DNA of 55,371 bases, taken from NCBI GenBank assembly GCA_005808505.1, contig SYLX01000104.1, forward strand, positions 1 to 55,371, given 5' to 3'. Source of the DNA: Bdellovibrionales bacterium. GTDB lineage: Bacteria > Bdellovibrionota > Bdellovibrionia > Bdellovibrionales > JAMPXM01. Positions 3,358 through 55,303 of this stretch are shown piece after piece (positions within the stretch are counted from its first letter, which is position 1; the number at the start of each line of letters is the position of its first letter). Under the pieces are notes generated by a model. The model was not told the origin of the DNA. It saw nothing but the letters and a program-made list of their open reading frames with translations, and did no database searches. The position numbers and the translations under genes were made by a program.

Positions 3358-3810
3358 TTAGCGCTGGATCTCGCTGTTGCCGCCGCGACCGAGCAAAAAG
3401 CCCAGCGCGAACGTGCCCACGGCGATGCCGCCGATGACGGGCCACGGGTTGCTGCGAACGCGAGTGTCTACTTCTGAATACACCTCACGGCCGCGTGCGA
3501 GCGCTTCGTTGATCGTCTCTTGGTTCATGAGATTGGAAGACATTCCAGAGAACTGTCCCGAAATCTGGCTGATTGCTTGAGAACTGAAGTCTTTCAAGCG
3601 ATCCGAAACACCCGCCATGCCGCTAGCACCAGCGAGAGTGCTACGAGATGACATATTGCCGATTGCGGATTGGATGTTGCGGTAATCTTCAGTCACGAAT
3701 TCCTTTAAGTTCTCGGTTTGCCCTTGGAGAGCGTCATCGAGCGCGCGGAGCGCGTCCTTGATGGAATTTGGGTGATTCTTCCCGTTGGAATTCGAAGCGT
3801 CTTGAGCCAT
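3358..3810 (-). CDS. DUF883 (ElaB/YqjD/YgaM-like) membrane-anchored stress protein
   Basis: Hydrophilic helical body with a C-terminal NPWPVIGGIAVGTFALGFLLGR transmembrane anchor, the hallmark C-terminus of the DUF883 family. Confidence 0.7.
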   Translation of the reverse strand: MAQDASNSNGKNHPNSIKDALRALDDALQGQTENLKEFVTEDYRNIQSAIGNMSSRSTLAGASGMAGVSDRLKDFSSQAISQISGQFSGMSSNLMNQETINEALARGREVYSEVDTRVRSNPWPVIGGIAVGTFALGFLLGRGGNSEIQR

Positions 3811-4278
3811 GACTTTCCTCCTTAAATCGAGTGCGGAAAATTTCAGACCCGCCCGCCCCTTTATTCGTTCCTCCGGGAACTGATCCTTCCGGATCGTCCC
3901 AGACTCACTTTGCAGCGGGCGTCGGTTTTTGAAATGACGACGTCACCAAGTTAGATAAGCCCTTAGTGAGGCTTCAACGGTAAACTAGAGTTGTTGCCAT
4001 ATCTAGATAGGCGCTGCACAACTCACTTGGGTCGAATCATCCCGAAAGCGGACCATTTGAGAGACGTGAAGTCGCTCTCTGTAGCGGTTGTGGAGTGGAT
4101 TTGAAAGATTCGAAACGCTTCGACGGTTTGTTGAGATGGTTTTCTCACTGCGATTTTTTTGGCGTGCCTCTCCCTTCCCCATGAGTTCTCCTCGAAGGCG
4201 ATCTAGCGGCTCAAGGTTGACGCAAGCCAATTGTGTTCGGCCCCTGAACCGACGAGGTCATCCACAGGAGGGGTTGTT

Positions 4279-4461
4279 ATGCTTTACTGGGCGTTGGTTT
4301 TCTTTATCGTTTCGCTCGTGGCAGGAGTTTTCGGATTCGGCGAAATTGCTTCGGCAACTGCCGGCATCGCGCAGATCCTTTTCTACGTCTTCCTAGTCTT
4401 CTTCGTTGTGACATTGATCGCGGGTCTCGCAGGTGGCGGCACACGCCGGCGCCTCCCTTAA
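4279..4461 (+). CDS. DUF1328 (YtjA-like) small membrane protein
   Basis: [44 protein letters not shown] matches the DUF1328 consensus. AGGAGG lies 7 nt upstream of the ATG at 4279. Confidence 0.7.
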
Positions 4462-4480
4462 CCGCATCAACAGATAAGTT

Positions 4481-5437
4481 ATGTGGGGAGAAAAGGATTT
4501 TCTAAGCTCACTTCGGCGCCAAGCTGAACGCCTGGCGTATTTAACGACCGCAAGTTTGGAAGTTCGTCCGAACTTAGCTTGTGGCTTCGCAGTCCTTATA
4601 TTTAGTTTGACGTCAATCCAGTCTTCTCACGCCGATGCGCCTTTCGTTCTCTATGGCAACGATGATCGACGTGAAGTGTTCGAAGAAAAATCATCAATCA
4701 AACGCACGCTCGCGCGATCAGTTGCCGCCGTCTTCGCGCCGGGCGTTCTTAAGAAGAATCGCGACGGAAGCTACTCAGCCGATGCCGTGAGCTATCGATC
4801 TGAATACAATCTCTGTGAGACGGAGAGGTTTGCAGAACAATCGATCGCGTCTGATTGCAGCGCTTTCCTCATCGCGCCCGATGTTGTTGCGACGGCCTCC
4901 CATTGCATCATCGATGAGTGGAACTGCTCTCGGCTTCGTTTCGCTTTCGACTACGGCTACATGAAATTAGGTCAGGATCCCAACCTTCTTCCCGCCGAAA
5001 ATGTTTACCGCTGCGATCGAATCTTATCGATGAGTGATGCCGACAATTCCAAGCGCGATTTCGCAATCGTGAAACTCGATCGTGAAGTCACCTCACGAGA
5101 GCCGCTCAAGCTGAGAACTCAAGGGATGGTCAATGCCGGTGAGGAACTCTTCGTGATCGGACATCCTTCAGGACTCCCGATGAAGATCGCAAGCCGCGCT
5201 CGTGTCAGAGAAGTCCTAGCCGATAAGATCTTGGCCAACCTCGATACCTACGCTGGAAACTCGGGTTCGCCCATTTTCAATGCGAAAACATACGAAGTCG
5301 AAGGGCTGCTCGTCTCGGGTGAGCAAGACTTCGTCAAAGTCGGAAGCTGCAACATCAGCCGTAGATGTGACGATCATGCTTGTCGCGGTGAGGAAGTCAT
5401 GCCGATTGGAAAACTTCTTCCACTTTTACCGAATTAA
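4481..5437 (+). CDS. secreted trypsin-like (S1) serine peptidase
   Basis: Catalytic triad contexts TASHCI (His), DFAIVKLD (Asp) and GNSGSPIF (Ser). A hydrophobic signal-like segment precedes them. The exact start is uncertain. Confidence 0.7.
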   Translation: MWGEKDFLSSLRRQAERLAYLTTASLEVRPNLACGFAVLIFSLTSIQSSHADAPFVLYGNDDRREVFEEKSSIKRTLARSVAAVFAPGVLKKNRDGSYSADAVSYRSEYNLCETERFAEQSIASDCSAFLIAPDVVATASHCIIDEWNCSRLRFAFDYGYMKLGQDPNLLPAENVYRCDRILSMSDADNSKRDFAIVKLDREVTSREPLKLRTQGMVNAGEELFVIGHPSGLPMKIASRARVREVLADKILANLDTYAGNSGSPIFNAKTYEVEGLLVSGEQDFVKVGSCNISRRCDDHACRGEEVMPIGKLLPLLPN

Positions 5438-5605
5438 ATCGTTGCACCACAATGTCAAATTTTGTTTAGTCCGCCTTCGCCGCATGTCCGGGCGATCAAA
5501 GTAATTAATGCGAGCTTCGGCTATGTAGCTCGCTTCACTTGTGTCTTGCGCATTCCACATTTTTTATAACCGGCAGAAAAGAACTTCACCGAGCTCGCGC
5601 GTACG

Positions 5606-6259
5606 GTGACCCTCGAACGCGATCGCACCGAACTTATTTTGGAGGAGGCTTCATTCATGGAGATCATCAACAAGCACGGCAAAGTTCTCTTCGAGGATAA
5701 GAACGCGACGAGCGTCCGCGAAGTCCTTGAAGACGCCGTGGAAAAAGGAATCGATCTCTCCGACGCTGACTTGAGCCACCAAGATCTTTCGAACGCTAAT
5801 CTTGAAAGTGCGAATCTTGTTGGAGCTTGCTTCACGCAAGCGAATCTACAGAGCGCCATTCTCAGCCACGCGAAATTAAATGGTGCGGTTTTTACGAAAG
5901 CCGTGCTCAAGGAGGCCCAGCTAAGCGAGGCCACTTTAATTTGGTGCGACTTCGCTGAAGCTGATCTCAACAAAGCGGACCTTTCGGGCTCTCTCCTCCA
6001 GGGCGCCAATCTTAAAGGCGCTTCTCTGCAAAAGGCAGATCTCTCCCGAGCGAACCTCTACGGAGCTCATTTGAATGGCTCCAACTTGATGTGGGCGAAT
6101 CTCTGTGGTGTGGATCTTTCGGGAGCAGATCTCTCGGCTTGTGATCTTTATGGTGCTTTCATGGATATGCAGGCCGTTTTACGCACGAACTTCCGTTCGG
6201 TGAACCTGCAAAACACCCTTCTCACAAACACCTTGTTACAGCTCTCCCTACCGGTTTGA
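5606..6259 (+). CDS. pentapeptide-repeat protein
   Basis: More than 25 tandem A(D/N)LxxA(N/D)L pentapeptides. The alternative start MEIINK is at 5657. Confidence 0.75.
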   Translation: MTLERDRTELILEEASFMEIINKHGKVLFEDKNATSVREVLEDAVEKGIDLSDADLSHQDLSNANLESANLVGACFTQANLQSAILSHAKLNGAVFTKAVLKEAQLSEATLIWCDFAEADLNKADLSGSLLQGANLKGASLQKADLSRANLYGAHLNGSNLMWANLCGVDLSGADLSACDLYGAFMDMQAVLRTNFRSVNLQNTLLTNTLLQLSLPV

Positions 6260-44329: not shown

Positions 44330-45826
44330 ATGTCGTTTGTTCTTCTCTTTTCGGTTTTCGTCATTGCAACCTGCGGGTTGATCTACGAGCTGATCGCGAG
44401 CGCGCTTGCGAGCTATCTCCTCGGGGACTCGATCACTCAATTTTCGACGATCATCGGCGTCTATCTTTTCTCGATGGGGATCGGATCCTTTCTTTCTAAG
44501 TACGTGAGCCGCAACCTTATCTCCGTCTTTGTTCGCGTCGAGTTCTTGATCGGACTTGTCGGTGGCACATCGGCAGCATTGCTTTTTCTACTTTTTGAGC
44601 AGGTCTCGTCCTTTCGGATCCTACTCTACTCGATCGTTTCGCTCACCGGAACGCTTGTTGGACTAGAGATCCCATTGCTCATGCGAATTCTGCAAGAGAA
44701 GTTCGAGTTCAAAGATCTCGTGGCGCGTGTGTTCACGTTCGATTACATCGGCGCTTTGCTTGCTTCACTCCTCTTCCCGCTCGTGCTCGTTCCGCATCTG
44801 GGCCTGGTTCGATCGGCGTTTCTCTTTGGTGCCGTCAACGTCATCGTTGGCCTATGGACGCTTCATCTTTTTAAAAGCGATGTGGCCTGGCCGAGAGCTC
44901 TTCGCGCAGGCGCTATCGGAATTTTGATCTTCCTCGTGACTGGTTTTGTCCTCTCCGATCGCATCATGAGTTTTGCGGAGACGTCGAGCTATCCGGATAA
45001 AGTTGTGTACGCGAAGTCGTCGCCTTATCAGCGCATCGTACTTACGCGCTCGCATAACGACACGCGCCTCTTTCTGAACGGCAATCTTCAGTTCAGCACG
45101 CGCGATGAATACCGCTATCACGAAGCGCTCGTTCACGTGGGCCTCGCTACGCTTGAGAATCCTAAAAAAGTTCTCGTGCTCGGCGGTGGAGATGGTCTCG
45201 CCGTTCGCGAGATCCTGAAGTATCCGAGTGTCGAGTCGATTACGCTTGTCGACCTCGACGCCGCGATGACTTCTCTCTTTCATAATCACGCGGACCTTTC
45301 AGCTCTCAACGGCGGAGCATTGCGCTCTCCGAAAGTGAAGATCATTAACACCGACGCGTTTTTATGGATCAAAGAGAACCGCGAAGTCTTTGATTTCATC
45401 GCCGTGGACTTTCCGGATCCTTCGAACTTCTCGATCGGCAAGCTCTATACGACAAGCTTCTACAAGAATCTGATCGCAGCCGTGCATGATAATGGCCTCG
45501 TTGTCATTCAAAGCACATCTCCTTACGTTGCTAAAAAATCTTTCAGCTGCATCAACACCACGCTTGAAGCGGCGGGCTTTATGACAACTCCGTATCACGC
45601 GTTCGTTCCCTCGTTTGGGGAATGGGGCTACGTGATCGGGACTAAGAAACCTTTTACTGCTCCGACTCGCTTTCCTGAGGGTTTGAAGTTCGTCAATCCC
45701 TCGACGGTCGCTACGATGCTTCAGTTCCCGCCGGATATGATGGTGGCTAAGACCGAGGTGAATCGTCTGAATAACCAGATCCTCGTGAGATATTTTGAAG
45801 ATGAGTGGTCCGAATACGTCAGATAA
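44330..45826 (+). CDS. membrane-embedded polyamine aminopropyltransferase (spermidine/spermine-synthase-like)
   Basis: About 200-aa multi-TM N-terminal domain fused to a spermidine-synthase fold (VLVLGGGDGLAVREIL...VDLD...DFPDP). Confidence 0.75.
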   Translation: MSFVLLFSVFVIATCGLIYELIASALASYLLGDSITQFSTIIGVYLFSMGIGSFLSKYVSRNLISVFVRVEFLIGLVGGTSAALLFLLFEQVSSFRILLYSIVSLTGTLVGLEIPLLMRILQEKFEFKDLVARVFTFDYIGALLASLLFPLVLVPHLGLVRSAFLFGAVNVIVGLWTLHLFKSDVAWPRALRAGAIGILIFLVTGFVLSDRIMSFAETSSYPDKVVYAKSSPYQRIVLTRSHNDTRLFLNGNLQFSTRDEYRYHEALVHVGLATLENPKKVLVLGGGDGLAVREILKYPSVESITLVDLDAAMTSLFHNHADLSALNGGALRSPKVKIINTDAFLWIKENREVFDFIAVDFPDPSNFSIGKLYTTSFYKNLIAAVHDNGLVVIQSTSPYVAKKSFSCINTTLEAAGFMTTPYHAFVPSFGEWGYVIGTKKPFTAPTRFPEGLKFVNPSTVATMLQFPPDMMVAKTEVNRLNNQILVRYFEDEWSEYVR

Positions 45827-47519
45827 AAAACTCCTCACCCGTCGGCAAGTCACGGCTCTTTTGGGTCTTGCCGGAGTCGGAACGGTCGCTGCAGCCGTCG
45901 CAAAGACGGCGGGCTTCGAGCGATTGTCTTCTTTGGTTGGCGGCAGCTCGACGGCTGCAGGACAAGTGATTCCGGGTCAGCTTCTAGGCGCGTCCCACAA
46001 AGTTGGACACATCCTGCGTCAACTTCCGAAAGATAAACCAGCACGGACGATCACGACTGGAATCGCGATCGTTGGCGGAGGGATCTCGGGCCTCTCCGCT
46101 GCCTACATGTTGAAGAAAAAAGGGTATGAAGATTTCCAACTTTTTGAACTTGAGAACGAGGTTGGTGGAAACTCAAGTTCAGGAGAAAACGGAGTTTCAG
46201 CGCATCCTTGGGGTGCGCACTATGTGCCTCTTCTAGGCAATGATGCCACCGAAGCTCACGAACTTTTCAAAGACCTCGGAATTATCGAAGGCGTCGATGC
46301 CGAAGGACGAGCGATCTACAACGAGGATTATCTTTGTGCCGATCCGCATGATCGTCTATTCCACCATGGCATTTGGCAAGAGGGCTTAGTGCCTAAATCG
46401 GGTCTTACGGATCACGAACAATCGCAATACCAGCAGTTTTTTTCGTTTTTGGAGAGACTCAAACACACTCGTGGAAAAGACGGAAAACCAGCCTTCACTA
46501 TTCCGGCCGATCGAAGTTCTCGAGATCCTGAATTTTTAAAGTACGACCAGATCACGATGGCGGAGTTCATGCGCCAAAATGGTTGGGAGGCGGGTTCGCT
46601 TCTCTGGTACGTCGAGTACTGTTGCCGCGACGATTATGGAACAGGAATTGATCAGGTCTCCGCGTGGGCGGGTCTCCATTATTTCGCTTCGCGAAGCGGT
46701 ATAGCTGCAAATGCGGATTCGCAAACGGTCCTCACGTGGCCCGAAGGAAACGGCTGGATCGTAAAAAAGCTGCGCGAAAAAGTTTCCTCCCAGCTTCGCT
46801 GCGGACAACTTGTTTACAATGTCGAAACGGATCAAAGCACCGGGGATGTCTTAGTCGACACGATCACGACTGGCTCGGGCGAAACTCTACGCATTCGCGC
46901 AAAGAGCGCGATCTTCGCAGCTCCCCAATTCATTGCGGGTCGAGTGGTAAAGAAGTTGCGTGAAGCTCCGCCCGAATACCTTCGTGACTTCACTTATGCG
47001 CCCTGGCTTGTCGCAAACGTCACTTTGAAGTCGGTGCCGCCTGGACCTGGTGTTGGTCTTTGTTGGGATAACGTGAGCGTCGCGAGTCGATCACTGGGAT
47101 ACATCAATGCGACTCACCAGTTGATTCCGCTTACGCCTGGTCCGACCGTAGTTACGTACTACCGACCGCTTGATGAGCGCGATCCTTTGACCGAACGGCG
47201 TGAAGCCTTGACCAAGACTCAAGCGCAATGGGCGGAGGAAGTCGCAAAAGATCTTGAATCGATGCACCCTTCCATTCGCCGCGAAATTTTGAATATTGAT
47301 GTTTGGGTTTGGGGTCACGCGATGCTTAGGCCCTTACCTGGTTTTATCACGGGAGAAAGTCGCAAGAACGCGGCTCGGCCTCTCGACCGAATCCTTTTCG
47401 CTCACTCGGATCTCTCCGGCATTCCGATTTTTGAAGAAGCTCATGCTCGCGGAACTCAAGCCGCTTTAAAGGCGCTGGAGTTTCTTTCGCGTCCGCGGAA
47501 CAATTTGGCGGGGATCTGA
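45801..47519 (+). CDS. Tat-exported FAD-dependent amine-oxidase-family oxidoreductase
   Basis: Twin-arginine signal (TRRQVTALLGLAGVGTVAAAVA) and an FAD dinucleotide fold (IAIVGGGISGLSAAYML). It overlaps the upstream gene by 26 nt. Confidence 0.65.
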   Translation: MSGPNTSDKKLLTRRQVTALLGLAGVGTVAAAVAKTAGFERLSSLVGGSSTAAGQVIPGQLLGASHKVGHILRQLPKDKPARTITTGIAIVGGGISGLSAAYMLKKKGYEDFQLFELENEVGGNSSSGENGVSAHPWGAHYVPLLGNDATEAHELFKDLGIIEGVDAEGRAIYNEDYLCADPHDRLFHHGIWQEGLVPKSGLTDHEQSQYQQFFSFLERLKHTRGKDGKPAFTIPADRSSRDPEFLKYDQITMAEFMRQNGWEAGSLLWYVEYCCRDDYGTGIDQVSAWAGLHYFASRSGIAANADSQTVLTWPEGNGWIVKKLREKVSSQLRCGQLVYNVETDQSTGDVLVDTITTGSGETLRIRAKSAIFAAPQFIAGRVVKKLREAPPEYLRDFTYAPWLVANVTLKSVPPGPGVGLCWDNVSVASRSLGYINATHQLIPLTPGPTVVTYYRPLDERDPLTERREALTKTQAQWAEEVAKDLESMHPSIRREILNIDVWVWGHAMLRPLPGFITGESRKNAARPLDRILFAHSDLSGIPIFEEAHARGTQAALKALEFLSRPRNNLAGI

Positions 47520-47522
47520 AAG

Positions 47523-48623
47523 ATGTTGAGTCAGGCGCAAAGGTCTCGCCAACCGTGGATCCACTCGGCCGCTTTTGATCTCGTCTTCATTTTAGCGCCG
47601 GCGCTTCTGGTGACTTTGTTCGTTCTGGCGCGGCCGGATTGGTTTTCCGGCCCTGTAGCCGTTTCGCCGCTTGCATGGCTTTTGCTCGTTTTGTGCGTGG
47701 ATGTGAGCCATGTCTACTCGACTCTATACAAAACTTATTTTGATCCCGCGGAGTTCCGTGAACGGCGCACGCTCTACACTCTTGTTCCTCTTTTCGTGTG
47801 GCTTGCGGGAGTTGTGCTTTACTCGTTCGGCGCGTTGGCTTTCTGGCGCACGCTCGCTTACTTAGCCGTGTTTCACTTTGTCAGGCAGCAGTACGGCTTC
47901 ATGCGCTTATACTCGGTGGAAGACAATCGCGGTGCGCGATTGTTGAACGCGGCCGCAATCTACGCGGCGACTCTTTATCCACTCGTCTATTGGCACACCA
48001 ATCTCCCCCGTCAGTTTCAGTGGTTTGTTGAAGGAGACTTCGTTTCACTGCCTTGGTCGTGGCTTGAGTCGGTTGCCTTCATCGCTTATGTTGCCGTGCT
48101 CAGTTTATATCTCTTGAAAGAAGTGTGGGTAGGATGGCGGCGGCGAAGTGTGAACTTACCGAGGAATCTCCTGCTTATCGGAACGGCGCTTTCTTGGTAC
48201 GTCGGAATTGTGACCTTCAACGGTGATCTCGCGTTTACTGCTACTAACGTGATCGCGCACGGGCTTCCGTATCTCGCGTTGATTTGGATCACGGGACGCA
48301 AGCGCGAAAGCTCCTTGATCTTCGGAGTAAGGCGCGGATGGGTTTTCGGCGCGATGGCAGCGCCGCTTTTCGTGGGCTTTCTAGTAGTTTTAGCTTTCGT
48401 TGAAGAAGGCTTTTGGGATGCGCTCGTTTGGCGCGATCACACATCGATCTTTGGATTGTTCTCTTTCCTGCCGCAACTTACGGACGCGGCTCTACTGGCG
48501 TTCGTCGTTCCGCTTCTCGCCGTGCCGCAAGCGACTCATTACGTCTTAGACGGATTTATTTGGCGTCGCGGTCGCGTTGTCGCGGCCAGTGAAACAGCGG
48601 CACCAGTTCGTGCGGCTTCGTGA
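47523..48623 (+). CDS. polytopic His-rich integral membrane protein (unknown function)
   Basis: About 9 TM helices with conserved-looking His positions (VDVSHVYS, FHFVRQQYGF, VIAHGLPY, ATHYVLDGF). Starts 3 nt after the upstream stop. Confidence 0.5.
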   Translation: MLSQAQRSRQPWIHSAAFDLVFILAPALLVTLFVLARPDWFSGPVAVSPLAWLLLVLCVDVSHVYSTLYKTYFDPAEFRERRTLYTLVPLFVWLAGVVLYSFGALAFWRTLAYLAVFHFVRQQYGFMRLYSVEDNRGARLLNAAAIYAATLYPLVYWHTNLPRQFQWFVEGDFVSLPWSWLESVAFIAYVAVLSLYLLKEVWVGWRRRSVNLPRNLLLIGTALSWYVGIVTFNGDLAFTATNVIAHGLPYLALIWITGRKRESSLIFGVRRGWVFGAMAAPLFVGFLVVLAFVEEGFWDALVWRDHTSIFGLFSFLPQLTDAALLAFVVPLLAVPQATHYVLDGFIWRRGRVVAASETAAPVRAAS

Positions 48624-48652
48624 TGGTTTAAAGTTCGCCGCGGTGGCGCGAT

Positions 48653-48684
48653 GCATCTCCACAAGGTGCCAGGCACCTTTGTGT
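48653..48684. repeat. copy A of a 32-33-bp palindrome-containing repeat (gcatctccacaaggtgccaggcacctttgtgt)
   Basis: Core perfect inverted repeat AAGGTGCC-A-GGCACCTT (48663-48679). It matches copy B at 51275-51306 in 31/32 positions. Confidence 0.8.
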
Positions 48685-48766
48685 TCACTTCCCGTCCGGA
48701 GCTCGTTACCGATTGGTGGCGCGGCGCTTCTGCAAAAGGAAACTGGTACCGCGGCCCCCGACCCTC

Positions 48767-51124
48767 TCAGCGAAATGGCCGCGCCTGCTTAATGATGATC
48801 GTGCGTGAGGGGCCGTAGATCTTCCACTCAACGTCGATCGCGAAGTCATAAAAATCCTTCTGATAGATCTTCGCGAGTTCGCCGTGTACGTAATGAAGTG
48901 CACGTGCAAGCTCCCGCAGCTCATCGCGCTTTCCCGCGTCAGAGGACTGACCAGAAATCTCGCCCGCTGCTTTTAAAACGGTTTCGCCGTTTTTAACTGA
49001 AGAGGATCGGACACGTTCGAACGGCCACTTCTTCCACGCACCAGCCTTCGCATTGTCGTCGGGGTTCGCGAGGAACGTTGTAACCAACGTCTCCTCTGTC
49101 ACGTAGGACTTCGTTGGATCTTCGCCGACTTCGACCAATTCCTCCTTGGTCGGAGGGTTCGTCACTGCAAGATCATAGTGTTGAGCGTTGATGTAGATCT
49201 TGCCGTCTTCTTCAAAGTTGTAAATGTTTGCGGTGATCGCGACGCCGTTTGCAACTTCCCCTTCTTTGCCGTCGAAATCCAAGCGCGGGAAGGCGCCGTG
49301 AACCGCCAATCCGACTTTGATGTCTAGATGCTGAGAACCGTTCATCGAGTACCACTCGCGCTCAAGGAAAGCGCGTTCGTTCCAGACACCTGCGTAGAGG
49401 CTTGGGATATCTTTGCGAAGATCTTCTTCAATCTTCTCCCACTTCTTCGGCTCGTTGCGATCGAAGCCCTTCTTCTTTTTATAGAGGTTGATCCCGAGCG
49501 AGTCGTAGAGACCTGCGCCCGTGAAGCCTTCTAGGTCTTCGGAGTTCGTGCTGCTGCGGAAGCGGAGGCGCGGATGCTTCGAGATATAAAGAGGCGACGT
49601 CGTATCTTCCATGATCGCGTGGCGAAGAAGATCAACTAAACGCTGCGGGAGTTGCGCACGTGAAACTACGGCGCGAACTTCTTCCAGCGTCGGGCGCACG
49701 ACCGAAATCGAATGAATTTTATCTGGATTGAGCAGATCGCCCTTGTTCAAAATCTCAACGATTCTCTCCTGTGGAGTCATCACCCGCTCAGGATTGGCGG
49801 AGTCGAGACCTTTTTGTTTCAAGTTGATGAATTGCTCATAGAAGTTAAAAGGAATCCCAACCGTATCGGGTGAGATTAAAGTTTCGCTCTTCACGCGGCT
49901 AATGACTTGCGAGAGAACACCGAGGTTCGCCGCTTTTGCTCCCACGATCTGAACCAGACGCGAGTGCTCCTTGCGCGTCGGGCGTTTTTTAAAATACGTG
50001 TCGAGACGGACCAGCTCATTGTCGTAGCGTGGATCAAGAATAAAGCTTGGCTTTCCATTAAGCTTTGGCTTTTTCGATTTCCAGAACGCGGCGATTTGCG
50101 CTTCGGCCTTTGCAGAATCAAGTTCGCGGATCGTGTACTTCGAACCTTCCACACGCAGCTCCACGGCTTTTCCTTCGTACGCACGTAAGGCTTGCTTCGC
50201 GTCTTTCAGATACATGTTCGCGGTGCCGCGGTTCATGCTCTTGACGTTGACGTGCGAGAGCGGTGTTTGCGGCTCCGCCGTCACTACTCCGCCGACAAGG
50301 CCAATTTCGTTCGGAACTTGATCGAACACAGCAATGTCTTTGATTTCAAGTGGCGAAATTCCTGGTCCGCTCACGTTGACGAAACGGACGTATCCGTAAG
50401 CCACTCCCTCGTTCAAAGCCAGATAAGTGATATTTCCCAGAAGATCTTTGGTGAGAACGTAATCCGCCGGAGCAAAGTTCTTCACGACCATTTGCTCCTG
50501 CTCAACACTGAGAGGATGAATCTTCAACTTCAAACTTTTCGGAAGAGAGTCCTGGATATCGCTCGCGAGGCTCAAGAGACCCTGAGCATCCATCGTATCC
50601 CCGCTCCAGAGTTCTAAAAGTGCCGGAGCGCCAACCTTCGTCGGAAGAATCACCGAAGCCAAAGCATATTCACGCTCTGTCAAAGGCCCACTATAGTTAC
50701 GATTGAACTCTTCATTGCCGCGGTTGAAGCCGAGCACTTCACTCGCGTACGAAAAGTGATATTGATACTTCTTCGTGTTGATGAAATGAACTTTACGACC
50801 CGACTTCGCATTGACGTCGTAAACAACTTTGACGACAAGATTTTCGCTCACGCCGATTTTCATACGGCGAGCAAGTTTCTCAAGACCTTCGACTGAAGAG
50901 TCATTCGTTACGTCCGCGACGACTCCGGCCTTCGGTGCTTTTTGAAGTGAGGGCGGAGCGAAACCAGCTGCAGGCGCTTGCTGAACCTGAGAGCGTAAAG
51001 GTTCCAGGCAAACCTGGGGTCCGACGGGACGCTTAGGTGTACCGGGCGGACATTCAGCTCCGTAAGCGTAAGTGCTGTGAACAACGATCGTCATCAGCGC
51101 AAGGAGCAGGCGGCGAGCTGTCAT
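48767..51124 (-). CDS. secreted PEP-utiliser-type protein: phosphohistidine (mobile) -like domain + PPDK_N ATP-binding domain
   Basis: Signal peptide, a mobile-domain-like block (GGVVTAEPQTPLSHVNVKSMNRGTANM), PPDK_N hallmarks (IVGAKAANLGVL; RFRSSTNSEDLEGFTGAGLYDS; C-terminal ...IIIKQARP). GGAGG RBS. Confidence 0.65.
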   Translation of the reverse strand: MTARRLLLALMTIVVHSTYAYGAECPPGTPKRPVGPQVCLEPLRSQVQQAPAAGFAPPSLQKAPKAGVVADVTNDSSVEGLEKLARRMKIGVSENLVVKVVYDVNAKSGRKVHFINTKKYQYHFSYASEVLGFNRGNEEFNRNYSGPLTEREYALASVILPTKVGAPALLELWSGDTMDAQGLLSLASDIQDSLPKSLKLKIHPLSVEQEQMVVKNFAPADYVLTKDLLGNITYLALNEGVAYGYVRFVNVSGPGISPLEIKDIAVFDQVPNEIGLVGGVVTAEPQTPLSHVNVKSMNRGTANMYLKDAKQALRAYEGKAVELRVEGSKYTIRELDSAKAEAQIAAFWKSKKPKLNGKPSFILDPRYDNELVRLDTYFKKRPTRKEHSRLVQIVGAKAANLGVLSQVISRVKSETLISPDTVGIPFNFYEQFINLKQKGLDSANPERVMTPQERIVEILNKGDLLNPDKIHSISVVRPTLEEVRAVVSRAQLPQRLVDLLRHAIMEDTTSPLYISKHPRLRFRSSTNSEDLEGFTGAGLYDSLGINLYKKKKGFDRNEPKKWEKIEEDLRKDIPSLYAGVWNERAFLEREWYSMNGSQHLDIKVGLAVHGAFPRLDFDGKEGEVANGVAITANIYNFEEDGKIYINAQHYDLAVTNPPTKEELVEVGEDPTKSYVTEETLVTTFLANPDDNAKAGAWKKWPFERVRSSSVKNGETVLKAAGEISGQSSDAGKRDELRELARALHYVHGELAKIYQKDFYDFAIDVEWKIYGPSRTIIIKQARPFR

Positions 51125-51274
51125 GGAACCTCCGACCGGAGCAGGTTTTCCTTGGAGAATTCAATGATTAGGCCAATATGGTGGCCGTTAAATCCTGTCT
51201 CGACGGCCGCACGAATGATCAACTTTTAGACGTCCTGCCGATGAACGGTACCAGTTACCTTTTGCTGAAGCACC

Positions 51275-51306
51275 GCATCTCCAAAAGGTGCCAGGCACCT
51301 TTGTGT
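51275..51306. repeat. copy B of the 32-33-bp palindrome-containing repeat (gcatctccaaaaggtgccaggcacctttgtgt)
   Basis: Perfect inverted repeat AAAGGTGCC-A-GGCACCTTT (51284-51302) in the divergent promoter region between the PPDK_N gene and the SDR gene. Confidence 0.8.
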
Positions 51307-51379
51307 CCCCCCGCCCGCACGTTGACACGGGAAATCTCGCAAGATGAAAGTGGATCGACGCTCTTTCGCAGGAGACCCC

Positions 51380-52267
51380 ATGAACCGCAGATCTTCGAAC
51401 CGACGTCTCTCGATTTTGGTAACCGGAGCCTCAACCGGAATCGGTCGCGCGCTCGTAGAGAAGTTCGCTTCCGACGGCCATCAAGTGTTTGCCTCCGTCC
51501 GCAAACCTGAAGACGGCGACTCGCTCAACGCTCTCGCGGGAGAAATTATCCCACTCTTCTTCGATGTGACCGACACGGAGGCCGTCTTTCGATGCGCGAA
51601 GGAAGCCGAGCACAAGAGATATCGCGACCGCGCCTTTTGCATCGTTAACAATGCGGGAATCGCGGTAGGCGGCCCACTCGAAATTCTCGACCTAAAAGAT
51701 TTCAAGCGGCAGTTCGAAGTCAATGTGTTCGGAGTTTTTGCGGTCACTCAGGCATTTTTGCCTTTGGTTCGGGCGATGGAAGGCGGACGCATCGTGAACA
51801 TGAGTTCCGTAAGCGGAAAGTTCGCCTCACCTTTCTTGGGTGCTTATTCTTCATCAAAATACGCGCTTGAGGCTTACTCCGATGCCCTCCGCCGCGAACT
51901 CGCCGTCGACGACATCAAAGTCTTGATCATCGAGCCCGGACCGGTCGCAACGCCAATCTGGGATAAAGGATTGAAGATGCCTCGTCCGGAAGGAGCAAAG
52001 CGCTACGAACAAGCGCTTGATCGCTTCGAGCGTTACGTGGATCACATCGTTAAACGCGCGCTTGAGCCCAAACACGTCGTGCGTGCCGTTGAGCGCGCTT
52101 TACTCGAAAACGATCCTCCGCTTCGCCAAATAGTAACAAGCATCGCGAGTAGAGCCGAGTATCAGCTGATGAACCTGCTCCCCGATAAATGGATTGATAA
52201 AGCTCTCGTTCAGCAGCTCTTCAAACCGACGAAGGCCGAAGCCGCTCAGCGGACCGCGCAGTCTTGA
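51380..52267 (+). CDS. short-chain dehydrogenase/reductase (SDR)
   Basis: TGASTGIGRA cofactor motif, NNAG, and the YSSSK catalytic Tyr/Lys. GGAGA RBS. Confidence 0.85.
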   Translation: MNRRSSNRRLSILVTGASTGIGRALVEKFASDGHQVFASVRKPEDGDSLNALAGEIIPLFFDVTDTEAVFRCAKEAEHKRYRDRAFCIVNNAGIAVGGPLEILDLKDFKRQFEVNVFGVFAVTQAFLPLVRAMEGGRIVNMSSVSGKFASPFLGAYSSSKYALEAYSDALRRELAVDDIKVLIIEPGPVATPIWDKGLKMPRPEGAKRYEQALDRFERYVDHIVKRALEPKHVVRAVERALLENDPPLRQIVTSIASRAEYQLMNLLPDKWIDKALVQQLFKPTKAEAAQRTAQS

Positions 52268-52833
52268 AGTTTAGCCGTGAGGGCTACGCCTTCTACTTCC
52301 GCTTCACCCGAGGCGGATGCTGCAGCTTTTCTAGCAAGAGCCGTGACGTTCGCACGCAAAATCGTGGTTGAACCACACTCGGCTTCGATCGTCTCACTTT
52401 CTCTTGCATAAAAGTCGCGCGCCACCTTTTGAGATCCGTTGAATTCCTTCGAAGCTTTCGGACCTTTCTGACCGGCTTCGAAGACTTCGGCTTCAACAAG
52501 CAGCGAAGCTTGATCCGAGAGTTCAACGCGCCCGAAGACCGCGGGTTTTCCGAGGCTCAACGTTTTTCCGGGAGGCAGCACAATCGGAAGCGCGAGGCTG
52601 CAAGCCTTGCGATCAATTGAACGATCACTGAGCTCGACTTTCATGGAGTTGAAGTAAACGAGCAGCCGGCCCGATCGTTCGCTGTATTGAACTTTTGGTG
52701 CATCAGCGGTTGCCGGACAACCGGGACCAGCAAGTTGCAGCTTCGACCAATCCAAAACTTTGTCCTGAGCGACTGCGTTGAGTCCGAGACCAACACCACC
52801 TAAAAGCAAAGCGAACGCGAAAATTTGTTTCAT
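52246..52833 (-). CDS. secreted hypothetical protein
   Basis: Signal peptide (FAFALLLGGVGLGLNAVAQ) and four Cys; no recognised domain. Confidence 0.45.
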   Translation of the reverse strand: MKQIFAFALLLGGVGLGLNAVAQDKVLDWSKLQLAGPGCPATADAPKVQYSERSGRLLVYFNSMKVELSDRSIDRKACSLALPIVLPPGKTLSLGKPAVFGRVELSDQASLLVEAEVFEAGQKGPKASKEFNGSQKVARDFYARESETIEAECGSTTILRANVTALARKAAASASGEAEVEGVALTAKLQDCAVR

Positions 52834-52960: not shown

Positions 52961-54727
52961 TCAAAGTGTCGCTTTGAGAACGGATGCTTGAGACGAAGAA
53001 GAGGAAGACAACGGAAGCGTCAGAATGAACGTTGTTTGAGACTCGGTGTTGTCGAGCCGCAACGTGCCACCATGAGCTTCCGCGATGCCTTTCGACACGC
53101 TGAGCCCGAGGCCCGATCCTCTACCACTCTTCTTCGTCGTAAAAAATGGTTCGAAGAGGTGCGCTCGAGCTTCCGCCGAAACACCTGGTCCACTATCGCG
53201 CACGCGAATCTCGATCCAATCGCCTTGGCGTACGGCGGAAACTTCCACCCAACGAAGAGGTGCCGGTGAACCTTCTTCGAAAACAACTTCGCCGATTGCA
53301 TCGTGTGCGTTATTCAAAAGATTCACCAAAATTTGTCCGATCTGAACGAGACGGCAATTGACGATCAGATCCGGGGGAAACGCTTGAATACGAAGCTGGA
53401 TCCCATGAGCCCGGAGCCGCTCGCGACAAAGCTCAACCGCTTCGTTGATCACTCTTTCCAACGGAACGGGCTCGACGGAATCTTGCTCTCCGTTTCGCGC
53501 CATCGTTCGGATCGACCGCACGATCTTTGCGATCTTATCAGTCATTTGCGCGATTTTCTGCGCCGATTTCGAGAGGTCGCGCTGAGCCTGGTCGTTCGAT
53601 TTCTCAACGACCCGTTTGATGATGTCCGAATTTCCGCGAATCACCATAAGCGGATTGTTAATCTCGTGCCCGATCGTGCTCGTCATTTCTCCAAGAGCTG
53701 ACATCTTGAAATTATTGATCATCATGGCACGCTGCTGTTTGATCGTTTCTTCTGCTCGAATGGCTTCGGTGCGATTTCGCATGATGATGATGACCTCATC
53801 TTCGCCAGCGCGCACGCAACGAACTTCAAAAAACTTCGCGTTGTCTTCATTCGACGATGACGACGCCAAATGAAGTTGAAATTCAAGAGATTCGGGACGA
53901 GGACTCTTCGCGAACGCTATGGCCTGCTTGAATCCTGCGTCGAGAAGAGTTGGCGTTGGAATTTCTTCCAACCTACGCCCGATCACGCGCTTGGCTTCAA
54001 GGCCGAGAGGAGTAGAGTCGATCCGGTGGCAGTCGACGACCACACCGTCTTTCCGAACGCGTAAAATTCCGTCCGGAATAGCCGAAAGCAGTGCCTGGTT
54101 CCTAAAGTGCGTCTGTTTCAACTGCGACAAACTCGAAGTGAGCTTGCGATCTGCTTCGCTATAAACAAATCGTGAATACGCCGCTTTCGCCAAGAGCAAC
54201 GTGAACACCAAACCAATGTTCACGTCGTGCAGAAAGCTAGGCGGAGCCATCGGCTGAAGAGAGAGTCCTAGAGTATAGCCTGTGGCTTCCAGCGCGCTAT
54301 AGGGAACCACCGCCGCAAGCACTCCAAAAAGCGTCGCCTTCTTTTCGTGAGAATCAAAAATAAGAAAAGGAACGGTGACAAGCAAAAGAAAGCTGAACTG
54401 CCCACCTGCCTCGCGCCCGTATGCGACGCATGAGACGACGGCGCCGAAACTTAGAGCCAAGATCAAAATGAACCTAGAAAGAAACGTTCGCCCAATTTTG
54501 TTTAGCAGTAGAGTCGCCAGATAGACGAGTGTGAATGCGACTCCGCCCAAAGCCTGTGCGAAGAGGCCGGAAAGAGCATAGGGAATCGCCAAAACGAAAG
54601 CGCAAGACGAGATAAGCACGGCGATGAAGTTCGACTGCCGAATTCTTCGAGCCAAAGACGCCGACGTCGAAGATTGAATACCGACGTCGATAAGTTGTTG
54701 AAAGGCTCTCACGATTTTGGAATGCAT
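52961..54727 (-). CDS. membrane sensor histidine kinase (multi-TM sensor + PAS-like + HisKA + HATPase)
   Basis: About 6 N-terminal TM helices, H-box TIGHEINNPL, and N/G-boxes (LLNNAHDA...DSGPGV...GSGLGLS). Confidence 0.8.
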   Translation of the reverse strand: MHSKIVRAFQQLIDVGIQSSTSASLARRIRQSNFIAVLISSCAFVLAIPYALSGLFAQALGGVAFTLVYLATLLLNKIGRTFLSRFILILALSFGAVVSCVAYGREAGGQFSFLLLVTVPFLIFDSHEKKATLFGVLAAVVPYSALEATGYTLGLSLQPMAPPSFLHDVNIGLVFTLLLAKAAYSRFVYSEADRKLTSSLSQLKQTHFRNQALLSAIPDGILRVRKDGVVVDCHRIDSTPLGLEAKRVIGRRLEEIPTPTLLDAGFKQAIAFAKSPRPESLEFQLHLASSSSNEDNAKFFEVRCVRAGEDEVIIIMRNRTEAIRAEETIKQQRAMMINNFKMSALGEMTSTIGHEINNPLMVIRGNSDIIKRVVEKSNDQAQRDLSKSAQKIAQMTDKIAKIVRSIRTMARNGEQDSVEPVPLERVINEAVELCRERLRAHGIQLRIQAFPPDLIVNCRLVQIGQILVNLLNNAHDAIGEVVFEEGSPAPLRWVEVSAVRQGDWIEIRVRDSGPGVSAEARAHLFEPFFTTKKSGRGSGLGLSVSKGIAEAHGGTLRLDNTESQTTFILTLPLSSSSSSQASVLKATL

Positions 54728-54829
54728 CCAATATACGCATCGAGTAGAGTAGCTCGAAACTTAAGTGATTTGCTCGGAAGTAAGAAGATCGTTGTTCCAG
54801 CCTGAAACACAGATCCTAGATACAATTAT

Positions 54830-55303
54830 TCAACGTTTGAGATTGTTCTTAGCGCGAATACGTGCAATCGCGCTGCGAAGGTCTTCCACCGGCTCATGAT
54901 TCGCCTCGAGACGTAAGACCACGCGCTGCTGGCTTTCGCTCAGCTCCTTCGCTCGGCTCAAAACTTCGATGAGATCTTCGCCGCCGATTGGCTTTTCGAA
55001 ATAATCGAAAGCCCCTAGGCGTAAGGCTTCTTTCATGTGCGAAATTTCACCACTCGCGGTGAGGAACACGAAGGGAATGTTGTTACCGCTCAACCGAACG
55101 GCGTTCATGAATGCCATTCCGCCGAGCACCGGCATCGTGATATCGCAGATGACGACATCAAAAGTACAACGCTTCAGAACCGCGAGCGCTTCGATCCCGT
55201 TTGCGGCAGTCTCGGCGCTCCACCCGTTATCGTGAACGTGGCGGAAGATCAGCTCTGTGATCTCCGGCTCGTCATCTACGATGAGGATGTTTTTCTTTTC
55301 CAT
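54830..55303 (-). CDS. single-domain response regulator (receiver)
   Basis: ILIVDDE...VICDITMPVLGG... receiver motifs; no DNA-binding output. Confidence 0.8.
   Translation of the reverse strand: MEKKNILIVDDEPEITELIFRHVHDNGWSAETAANGIEALAVLKRCTFDVVICDITMPVLGGMAFMNAVRLSGNNIPFVFLTASGEISHMKEALRLGAFDYFEKPIGGEDLIEVLSRAKELSESQQRVVLRLEANHEPVEDLRSAIARIRAKNNLKR

What the first reader, a model, noticed from the sequence alone, without database searches (positions are those of the whole stretch)
48767..51124. Secreted 785-aa protein with reversed PEP-utiliser architecture (phosphohistidine-like domain upstream of PPDK_N ATP-binding domain)
The clear N-terminal signal peptide (MTARRLLLALMTIVVHSTYAYGA) is unexpected for PEP-synthase/PPDK/rifampin-phosphotransferase-type enzymes, which are cytoplasmic. 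PPDK_N hallmarks are unambiguous (GAKAANLG; RFRSSTNSEDLEGFTGAG; terminal KQARP). A mobile-domain-like segment (GGVVTAEPQTPLSHVNVKSM) precedes rather than follows it. If this organism is a predator, an exported ATP-dependent dikinase/phosphotransferase-like protein could act on prey components or on xenobiotics outside the cytoplasm. The gene is flanked by the palindromic repeats described above.
Basis: partly seen in the sequence, partly recalled or inferred. Interest (0 to 1): 0.6.

Follow-up and report, generated by a model that had tools for sequence, protein, structure and literature searches.

The report
Exported bacterial dikinase, unknown target
This gene encodes an ATP-using, histidine-relay phosphotransferase, built in the same domain order as the plant starch-phosphorylating enzyme but carrying an export signal and an unrecognised front domain, and it belongs to a large uncharacterised family that bacteria apparently send outside the cytoplasm, where ATP is scarce.

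Summary
ORF 48767-51124 (-) encodes 785 aa behind a strong Shine-Dalgarno. It has a tripartite Sec-type signal peptide, a Pro-rich linker holding the only two cysteines, a 155-aa N-terminal domain, a central swivel phosphohistidine domain (invariant His291) and a C-terminal PPDK_N ATP-binding domain with every nucleotide/Mg motif conserved.

The family is large (1,343 clusters at 50% identity; at least 554 genome loci) and spans Myxococcota, Bdellovibrionota, Bacteroidota, Verrucomicrobiota, Planctomycetota and others. Export signals occur in about 84 of 101 full-length members, against 0 of 112 controls.

I read it as an exported water-dikinase with an unknown extracytoplasmic acceptor. The flanking palindromes are an incidental REP-like element. 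The acceptor and the ATP source remain open. Verdict: new variant of a known kind; interest 0.6.

The parts
48767..51124 (-). Complete ORF, 785 aa plus TGA stop: exported dikinase-like protein
   Evidence: ORF list. An identical protein, P0001, is in the public collection.
51129..51133 (-). Shine-Dalgarno GGAGG, 4 nt upstream of the ATG
   Evidence: Read directly from the sequence.
51059..51124 (-). Signal peptide, residues 1-22 (n: MTARR; h: LLLALMTIVV; c: HSTYAYG; predicted cut AYG|AE)
   Evidence: Tripartite layout and -3/-1 rule. The ortholog P0002 has ...TASA|ANCPPG. Family-wide heuristic: 84 of 101 against 0 of 112 controls.
50903..51058 (-). Low-confidence Pro-rich linker, residues 23-74, containing the only two cysteines (C25, C39; CPPGTP..GPQVC loop shared with P0002)
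   Evidence: pLDDT below 50 for residues 41-71. Cys positions.
50435..50902 (-). N-terminal alpha/beta domain, residues 75-230: presumed acceptor-binding domain with no recognised fold. H123 is invariant in both alignments. D176 is invariant in the 25-sequence set and near-invariant in the 67-sequence set. Y144 and R151 are near-invariant in the 25-sequence set and invariant in the 67-sequence set. K99, F126 and F140 are near-invariant in both, P204 in the 25-sequence set and E171 in the 67-sequence set.
50075..50431 (-). Swivel phosphohistidine (phosphoryl-carrier) domain, residues 232-350, with 7 strands and 3 helices
50252..50254 (-). Codon of His291, the predicted phospho-accepting histidine (motif QTPLSH291VNVKS), at the first residue of helix 291-299
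   Evidence: Invariant in 35 of 35 sequences and in A3. Helix start. Same placement as H992 of StGWD1, which is preceded by the conserved V989-L990.
48770..49975 (-). C-terminal PPDK_N-type ATP-grasp nucleotide-binding domain, residues 384-785 (G395-x-K397; R523-S-S-T-N-S-E-D530; E766; Q780-x-R782)
48642..48751 (.). Downstream flank: two copies of a ~36-nt unit, including the perfect palindrome AAGGTGCC-A-GGCACCTT (48663-48679). REP-like or terminator-like, and not part of the gene's function.
51246..51306 (.). Upstream flank: the same unit plus an inverted degenerate copy (palindrome 51285-51301). With 48708-48751 it forms a 44-nt, 82% inverted repeat bracketing the gene.
   Evidence: The same palindrome lies 3' of an unrelated ORF on contig SXGS01310386.1. 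It is absent from the 84 other loci fetched by then.

Best explanation
The gene encodes a Sec-exported, catalytically competent histidine-swivel 'water dikinase' with the GWD domain order.

Proposed mechanism:
1. After signal-peptide cleavage (about AYG|AE), the mature protein of roughly 85 kDa sits in the periplasm, on the cell surface or in the medium.
2. ATP binds the C-terminal ATP-grasp domain.
3. His291 of the central swivel domain attacks the beta-phosphate, giving phospho-His and AMP, while the gamma-phosphate goes to water as Pi.
4. The His domain swings to the N-terminal 155-aa domain.
5. There, conserved residues (His123, Asp176, Arg151, Tyr144, Lys99) bind and deprotonate a hydroxyl group of an extracytoplasmic acceptor, which receives the phosphate.

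Shown here: the three-domain anatomy, conservation of all ATP/Mg and phospho-His residues, export signals across the family, and the obligate link between the N-domain and the dikinase module.

Inferred: the dikinase chemistry (from homology to PEPS, PPDK, RPH and GWD), the N-domain's role as acceptor site, and the ATP source (prey-derived or released extracellular ATP).

The acceptor is unknown. My preferred guess, at about 0.2, is a carbohydrate polymer of prey or of the cell envelope.
For: ATP domain:
- Pfam PPDK_N 46.7 bits against a cutoff of 27.
- Family profile against PEP synthase, E=8.8e-29 with motif-for-motif alignment.
- Invariant G395, K397, R523, S525, N527, E529, D530, E766, Q780 and R782.

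His domain:
- His291 is invariant and sits at the start of helix 291-299, as H992 does in StGWD1.
- GWD1_pHisD hits in 12 of 102 relatives, down to E about 1e-6, against a single PEP-utilizers hit.

Export:
- Strong SD before the ATG and a tripartite signal peptide with no other TM segment.
- 84 of 101 relatives carry a signal peptide or lipobox, against 0 of 112 controls.
- Only 2 Cys, both in the N-terminal linker.
- Relatives carry fused Dockerin, Big_5, CarboxypepD_reg, ADAMTS-spacer, TSP3 and LTD modules.
- In about 10-12 of 80 loci the gene follows two lipoprotein genes on the same strand.

N-domain as a functional partner:
- pLDDT 95, with invariant His, Tyr and Arg and near-invariant Asp and Lys.
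- 64 of 67 full-length proteins found with the N-domain profile alone carry PPDK_N, and the short hits look like fragments.
- An Asp base plus His residues in the acceptor domain is the arrangement reported for the dikinase BsPPS (PMC13553574).

Against: - No experiment exists for any family member, and no paper describing the family was found.
- The periplasm and medium hold little ATP. Nanomolar levels are reported, whereas, from my own knowledge, characterised dikinases have micromolar or higher Km values.
- For this protein the Pfam pHis hit is below threshold (14.8 against 27 bits), and a His-domain-only HMM finds no solved swivel domain. The assignment therefore leans on a predicted structure.
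- The N-domain has no fold relative and there are no conserved neighbours in this clade, so the acceptor is a guess.
- Signal peptides were scored with my own heuristic, not with SignalP.
- A few family members seem to lack a signal peptide (P0021, P0022, P0120, P0140).
Confidence: 0.6

Rival explanations
1. It is an extracytoplasmic glycan dikinase. Like plant GWD on starch, it phosphorylates an insoluble or polymeric carbohydrate (prey peptidoglycan or LPS, chitin, cellulose, exopolysaccharide) to loosen or mark it for hydrolases. This is a specific version of the best explanation.
For: - GWD-type domain order and His domain.
- The family is concentrated in predators and polymer degraders: Myxococcota, Bdellovibrionota, Bacteroidota, Verrucomicrobiota, Planctomycetota and Chitinispirillaceae.
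- Relatives carry fused Dockerin, Big_5, CarboxypepD_reg and LTD modules, which are typical of extracellular glycan-active enzymes.
- The conserved N-domain motifs are rich in aromatic and polar residues (YHYDF, FNxNY, ELWxGD).
Against: - No CBM or any carbohydrate-binding family was detected.
- The N-domain has no fold match to any CBM or to the GWD central domain.
- No glycoside hydrolase or transporter is conserved next to the gene.
- The ATP supply problem applies here too.
Confidence: 0.2
2. It is a small-molecule (xenobiotic, antibiotic or phenolic) phosphotransferase acting in the periplasm. This would be an exported analogue of rifampin phosphotransferase, BsPPS, HpeHI or phenylphosphate synthase, used for defence or for inactivating competitors' compounds.
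For: - Dikinases of this branch phosphorylate hydroxyls of rifampin and polyphenols using an Asp/His or Glu/Arg acceptor site.
- The compact 155-aa N-domain, with its conserved His, Asp and Arg, could form a small-molecule pocket.
Against: - The domain order differs from RPH and BsPPS, and the N-domain is unrelated to the rifampin-binding domain.
- Known resistance dikinases are cytoplasmic, where ATP is available.
- There are no resistance-gene or catabolic-gene neighbours.
Confidence: 0.12
3. It is an extracellular-ATP-consuming or ATP-sensing enzyme. The phospho-His is simply hydrolysed, or passed to a partner protein, giving ATP -> AMP + 2 Pi. This would serve nucleotide or phosphate scavenging from lysed prey, or signalling.
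For: - Export combined with an intact ATP site.
- One relative has a fused histidine-phosphatase domain (P0061).
- Partner lipoproteins occur in some operons.
Against: - Ordinary nucleotidases and phosphatases do this more cheaply.
- The PHPT1 similarity is below any significance level.
- No partner is conserved in this clade.
Confidence: 0.08
4. It is not exported. On this view it is a cytoplasmic PEP-synthase-like enzyme, with a hydrophobic N-terminus that is a mis-called start or a membrane anchor facing inward.
For: - All characterised relatives are cytoplasmic or plastidial.
- A few family members lack a signal (P0021, P0022, P0120, P0140).
Against: - A strong SD sits at the annotated ATG, and the next Met (residue 11) lies inside the h-region.
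- Positive charges precede the h-region, so the orientation is N-in and C-out.
- 31 relatives have lipoboxes, and others have a Tat motif or extracellular-type modules.
- The domains are nearly Cys-free.
- It fails the PEP synthase equivalog models (24 against 598 bits) and has no PEP/pyruvate TIM-barrel domain.
Confidence: 0.05

Closest known systems
Alpha-glucan water dikinase / phosphoglucan water dikinase (GWD1, PWD; EC 2.7.9.4/5) of plants and algae
   Same: - The order is phosphohistidine domain followed by a C-terminal ATP-binding domain.
- The His domain matches Pfam GWD1_pHisD and not PEP-utilizers.
- The His domain has 7 strands and 3 helices, with the catalytic His opening a short helix and preceded by hydrophobic-Leu-x.
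- In both, the ATP domain resembles RPH more than PPDK.
- Water-dikinase chemistry is predicted.
   Different: - No CBM45 or CBM20, and no ~440-aa all-helical central domain. A 155-aa alpha/beta domain of unrecognised fold takes their place.
- About 785 aa, against 1,387 numbered residues in mature StGWD1.
- Bacterial, with a Sec signal instead of a plastid transit peptide.
- StGWD1's His domain carries C1003 and C1007, a pair I recall as redox-regulatory. This protein has no Cys outside the N-terminal linker.
- The acceptor is unknown.
Rifampin phosphotransferase (RPH-Lm) and its homolog BsPPS (polyphenol dikinase)
   Same: - A swivel His relay phosphorylates a hydroxyl acceptor.
- The acceptor sites use Asp/His or Glu/Arg residues.
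   Different: - The order there is ATP domain, then substrate domain, then a C-terminal His domain.
- Those enzymes are cytoplasmic.
- Their substrate-binding domain is unrelated to the N-domain here.
PEP synthase (PpsA) and pyruvate phosphate dikinase (PPDK)
   Different: - No PEP/pyruvate-binding TIM barrel.
- Opposite domain order.
- Far below the NCBIfam equivalog cutoffs (24.2 against 598 bits; 19.1 against 739.75 bits).
- Exported.
[quoted passage not shown]
   Same: It is an ATP-requiring enzyme family that uniformly carries an N-terminal signal peptide, which raises the same question about the ATP source outside the cytoplasm.
   Different: The fold and chemistry are unrelated (nucleotidyl transferase acting on DNA).

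Membership tests
Histidine-swivel dikinase superfamily (PEPS/PPDK/RPH/GWD) | PPDK_N-type ATP-grasp nucleotide-binding domain | tested here: met
   [not shown]
Histidine-swivel dikinase superfamily (PEPS/PPDK/RPH/GWD) | Conserved ATP/Mg-binding motifs (G-x-K; R-S-S-x-x-x-E-D; acidic residue in the D-x-E-W/F strand; Q-x-R-P) | tested here: met
   G395, K397, R523, S525, N527, E529, D530, E766, Q780 and R782 are invariant in 35 sequences and align to the same PEPS motifs.
Histidine-swivel dikinase superfamily (PEPS/PPDK/RPH/GWD) | Swivel phosphoryl-carrier domain with the catalytic His at the start of a short helix | tested here: met
   [not shown]
Histidine-swivel dikinase superfamily (PEPS/PPDK/RPH/GWD) | ATP-dependent autophosphorylation on His and release of AMP plus Pi | not testable with these tools
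   Needs biochemistry.
Glucan water dikinase (GWD/PWD) | His domain immediately N-terminal to a C-terminal ATP-binding domain | tested here: met
   Residues 232-350, then 384-785. StGWD1 architecture is described in PMC13553574.
Glucan water dikinase (GWD/PWD) | Match to the GWD1_pHisD model (PF22973) above the gathering score | tested here: inconclusive
   This protein scores 14.8 bits against a cutoff of 27 (E=0.022). Six of 35 and 6 of 67 relatives match, with best E values of 4.5e-6 and 1.2e-6.
Glucan water dikinase (GWD/PWD) | N-terminal starch-binding modules (CBM45 or CBM20) | tested here: not met
   No CBM hit in this protein or in the 102 relatives scanned.
Glucan water dikinase (GWD/PWD) | Large all-helical central (acceptor) domain | tested here: not met
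   [not shown]
PEP synthase / PPDK | C-terminal PEP/pyruvate-binding TIM-barrel domain, in the order ATP-His-TIM | tested here: not met
   No such Pfam domain was found, and the ATP domain is C-terminal. NCBIfam PEP synthase scores are 24.2 against 598 and 19.1 against 739.75 bits.
Rifampin phosphotransferase / BsPPS | N-terminal ATP-grasp, then a substrate-binding domain, then a C-terminal His domain | tested here: not met
   Only the ATP domain aligns to 5hv1, and the order is inverted.
Sec-exported (extracytoplasmic) proteins | Cleavable N-terminal signal peptide (positive n-region, hydrophobic h-region, small residues at -3 and -1) | tested here: met
   MTARR / LLLALMTIVV / HSTYAYG|A. It is conserved in orthologs and 84 of 101 relatives are positive, against 0 of 112 controls. 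This is a heuristic result, since SignalP was not available.
Sec-exported (extracytoplasmic) proteins | Demonstrated location outside the cytoplasm | not testable with these tools
   Needs fractionation, proteomics or reporter fusions.

The most novel reading that the evidence does not exclude
This family may be a bacterial extracellular counterpart of starch phosphorylation. On this reading, the enzymes are secreted or surface-anchored dikinases that use ATP leaking from prey or lysed cells to add phosphate to insoluble glycans outside the cell (prey peptidoglycan or LPS, chitin, cellulose, exopolysaccharide). The substrate would be bound by a previously unseen domain, and phosphorylation would loosen or tag the polymer for degradation. 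That would be a new enzymatic strategy in predation and polymer turnover, and a rare case of ATP-driven chemistry outside the bacterial cytoplasm.
Probability: 0.15. Interest if true: 0.85.

Novelty: new variant of a known kind. Interest (0 to 1): 0.6.

Why it matters
Histidine-swivel dikinases (PEP synthase, PPDK, GWD, rifampin phosphotransferase) are regarded as cytoplasmic or plastidial enzymes because they consume ATP.

Here a large, phylogenetically broad family has an intact ATP site and phospho-His relay, yet is almost always fitted with Sec or lipoprotein signals and sometimes with dockerin, Ig-like or other cell-surface modules. It comprises 1,343 clusters at 50% identity and at least 554 loci in species-representative genomes. 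Its acceptor domain has no recognisable fold relative.

If the enzymes are active outside the cytoplasm, two things follow. There would be an unappreciated use of extracellular or prey-derived ATP, and an unknown phosphorylated extracytoplasmic product (glycan, envelope component or small molecule).

The question is directly testable. The protein is a single soluble polypeptide. Cultivated carriers exist, including Cystobacter fuscus, Nannocystis radixulma and Polyangium jinanense, and the family also turns up in an Akkermansia muciniphila MAG. The key mutants are obvious: H291, K397, H123 and D176.

Tried and rejected
- Single-sequence phmmer against the PDB found nothing. The family profile was needed.
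- Conserved gene neighbourhood in the close clade: none. The window, P0002 and P0004 contexts all differ.
- Systematic neighbour clustering over 80 loci gave only two lipoprotein families of unknown function, in about 10-12 loci, and they are absent from this window.
- Flanking palindromes as cassette borders or as a gene-specific operator: rejected. The same palindrome lies 3' of an unrelated ORF on another contig, and none of the other 84 loci has it.
- Tat export: the RR in MTARRLLL is not conserved in the closest relatives (P0002 and P0039), so Sec is more likely.
- Rfam: no RNA family anywhere in the window.
- Literature: five searches found no description of an exported dikinase of this type. 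Two candidate papers were irrelevant.
- Standalone N-domain proteins: the short hits end inside family motifs, so they are fragments.
Full report
**1. The observation**

The minus-strand ORF at 48767-51124 exists and encodes 785 aa with the quoted N-terminus and motifs. Its ATG is preceded by GGAGG at a 4-nt spacing. The next in-frame Met is residue 11, inside the hydrophobic core, so the start call is sound.

The N-terminus has the classical signal-peptide layout: MTARR (n, +2), LLLALMTIVV (h) and HSTYAYG (c), with A-Y-G|A obeying the -3/-1 rule. No other segment is hydrophobic enough to span a membrane. The whole protein has only two cysteines, C25 and C39. Both lie in a Pro-rich, low-pLDDT linker just after the predicted cleavage site.

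**2. Domains**

- **C-terminal ATP domain.** Pfam gives PPDK_N at 46.7 bits (cutoff 27) over residues 392-784, and a sub-threshold hit (E=0.022) of residues 277-339 to GWD1_pHisD, the phosphohistidine domain of alpha-glucan water dikinase. NCBIfam sees only the N-terminal third of the PEP synthase models, far below their cutoffs. A 35-sequence family profile matches the ATP-binding domains of PEP synthases and rifampin phosphotransferase at E=1e-22 to 9e-29, with motif-for-motif correspondence: GAKAAN/GGKGAN, RSSTNSED/RSSATAED, DVEW/DIEW and KQARP/VQSRP.
- **Caveat on the His domain.** A His-domain-only HMM does not reach any solved structure. This assignment is therefore structural plus Pfam-based, not a strong sequence match.
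- **Active-site conservation.** All residues expected for ATP/Mg binding are invariant across the 35 sequences.

**3. The "reversed" architecture**

The order is reversed relative to PEPS and PPDK (ATP-His-TIM barrel) and to RPH (ATP-substrate-His). It is nevertheless the standard order of glucan and phosphoglucan water dikinases, where the His domain is followed by the C-terminal ATP-binding domain. Among 102 family members scanned, 12 hit GWD1_pHisD (best E about 1e-6) and only one hits the PEP-utilizers mobile domain.

The protein is still not a GWD. No CBM45 or CBM20 is present, and there is no helical central domain.

**4. The N-terminal domain**

H123 is invariant in both alignments. D176 is invariant in the 25-sequence alignment and near-invariant in the 67-sequence one, while Y144 and R151 show the reverse pattern. 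K99, F126 and F140 are near-invariant in both, P204 in the 25-sequence set and E171 in the 67-sequence set.

A profile of this domain alone, run against 1.84 billion cluster representatives, finds 1,343 proteins (726 at E of 1e-10 or better). The domain is always near the N-terminus. Of 67 full-length hits, 64 carry PPDK_N, and the short hits end inside family motifs, so they are fragments.

The N-domain is therefore an obligate partner of the dikinase module. By position and by analogy with the acceptor domains of other dikinases, it is the likely acceptor site. BsPPS, for example, uses an Asp base plus His residues.

**5. Export is a family trait**

My heuristic finds Sec-type or lipobox signals in 84 of 101 full-length members, against 0 of 112 aminopeptidase controls. 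Most of the 16 apparent negatives show a visible lipobox, a Tat motif or a mis-called start.

Relatives carry N-terminal Dockerin plus Big_5, CarboxypepD_reg, ADAMTS spacer, TSP3 and LTD modules, all typical of extracytoplasmic proteins. In about 10-12 of 80 loci (Myxococcota, a spirochaete, a Thermoanaerobaculia genome) the gene follows two lipoprotein genes of unknown function on the same strand.

A small subclade seems to lack signals (P0021, P0022, P0120, P0140).

**6. Distribution and host**

Myxococcota dominate. Bdellovibrionota, Bacteroidota, Verrucomicrobiota (including Akkermansia muciniphila), Planctomycetota, Fibrobacterota, some Actinomycetes and others are also represented. Cultivated carriers include Cystobacter fuscus, Polyangium jinanense and Nannocystis radixulma.

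The window's organism is an uncultured Bdellovibrionota member. The family is not predator-specific. Within the close clade the gene stands alone and its neighbourhoods are not conserved.

**7. Mechanism**

The best-supported reading is an exported water-dikinase:

1. ATP binds the C-terminal domain.
2. His291 takes the beta-phosphate, giving AMP, with the gamma-phosphate going to water.
3. The swivel domain delivers the phosphate to an acceptor held by the N-domain.

The anatomy, the residue conservation and the export signals are shown here. The chemistry is inferred from homology (GWD mechanism as summarised in PMC7569903). The acceptor and the ATP source are unknown.

Low ATP outside the cytoplasm is the main objection. 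Lig E, a periplasm-targeted ATP-dependent ligase, is a documented precedent, and nanomolar extracellular ATP has been measured. From general knowledge, a predator or a lytic community would also meet ATP released from prey.

Candidate acceptors, in my order of preference, are a glycan or envelope polymer, a small xenobiotic, and water or a partner protein.

**8. Flanking palindromes**

The perfect palindrome AAGGTGCC-A-GGCACCTT occurs only twice in the window, once on each side of the gene. It is part of a ~36-nt unit present three times, and a 44-nt, 82% inverted repeat brackets the gene.

The same palindrome lies about 25 nt past the stop codon of an unrelated cardiolipin-synthase-like ORF on another metagenomic contig. 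It is absent from the 84 other loci fetched by then. It is best read as a lineage-specific REP-like or terminator-like hairpin and is incidental to the gene's function.

**9. Novelty and score**

No paper describing this family was found. Public annotations say "hypothetical protein" or, in two distant relatives, "pyruvate, water dikinase" and the PPDK_N domain description.

It is a new variant of a known kind: a histidine-swivel dikinase in GWD order, but exported and carrying an unrecognised acceptor domain. I score interest at 0.6. An ATP-dependent relay enzyme that is consistently exported across phyla would surprise a specialist, and the key experiments are straightforward. Function, however, remains inferred.

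Noticed in passing
window 48642-48751 and 51246-51306; L085 114-137: A REP-like element (~36-nt unit, with the perfect palindrome AAGGTGCC-A-GGCACCTT) occurs only at the two flanks of this gene in 55 kb. The same palindrome lies 3' of an unrelated cardiolipin-synthase-like ORF on metagenomic contig SXGS01310386.1. It is probably a lineage-specific intergenic hairpin (terminator or REP).
   Followed up: partly
L020, L024, L055, L057, L068, L070, L079 and others (genes directly upstream of the dikinase at about 3600-5750): In about 10-12 of 80 diverse loci the dikinase is the last gene of an apparent lipoprotein A - lipoprotein B - dikinase operon. Lipoprotein A has no Pfam family, and lipoprotein B hits DUF1554 only weakly. 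These are possible partners or substrates. They are absent from this window.
   Followed up: partly
P0027, P0028, P0030, P0032; loci L069 and L080 (Pseudobdellovibrio): A ~950-1025-aa subfamily, found in Bdellovibrio-like genomes, keeps the signal peptide, His domain and ATP domain but replaces the 155-aa N-domain with a different N-terminal region of about 480 aa. This may reflect a different acceptor specificity.
   Followed up: no
P0021, P0022, P0120, P0140: A small subclade has the same three-domain core but no recognisable signal peptide. One member is annotated 'pyruvate, water dikinase' by JGI. It could be a cytoplasmic ancestor or a derivative.
   Followed up: no
P0061 (947 aa): This family member has an N-terminal histidine-phosphatase (His_Phos_1) domain fused in front of the N-domain, and a weak PPDK_N match.
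   Followed up: no
window 44330-48623 (+): Three co-directional genes end convergently on the dikinase: a 498-aa protein with a spermidine/spermine synthase domain, a 574-aa FAD amine-oxidase-like protein with a Tat-like N-terminus (TRRQVTALLGLAGVG) that overlaps it by 32 bp, and, 3 nt further on, a 366-aa multi-pass membrane protein with no Pfam family. This may be an extracytoplasmic polyamine-related module.
   Followed up: partly
window 52246-52833 (-), 52961-55303 (-): A signal-peptide-bearing DUF4360 protein, and a histidine kinase (MASE7/HisKA/HATPase_c) with a response-regulator gene, lie beyond the divergent SDR gene (51344-52267). No link to the dikinase was found.
   Followed up: no
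L046, L015, L007, L036: Some Myxococcota loci contain two dikinase-family ORFs within a few kb of each other, which suggests tandem paralogs and lineage-specific expansion.
   Followed up: no
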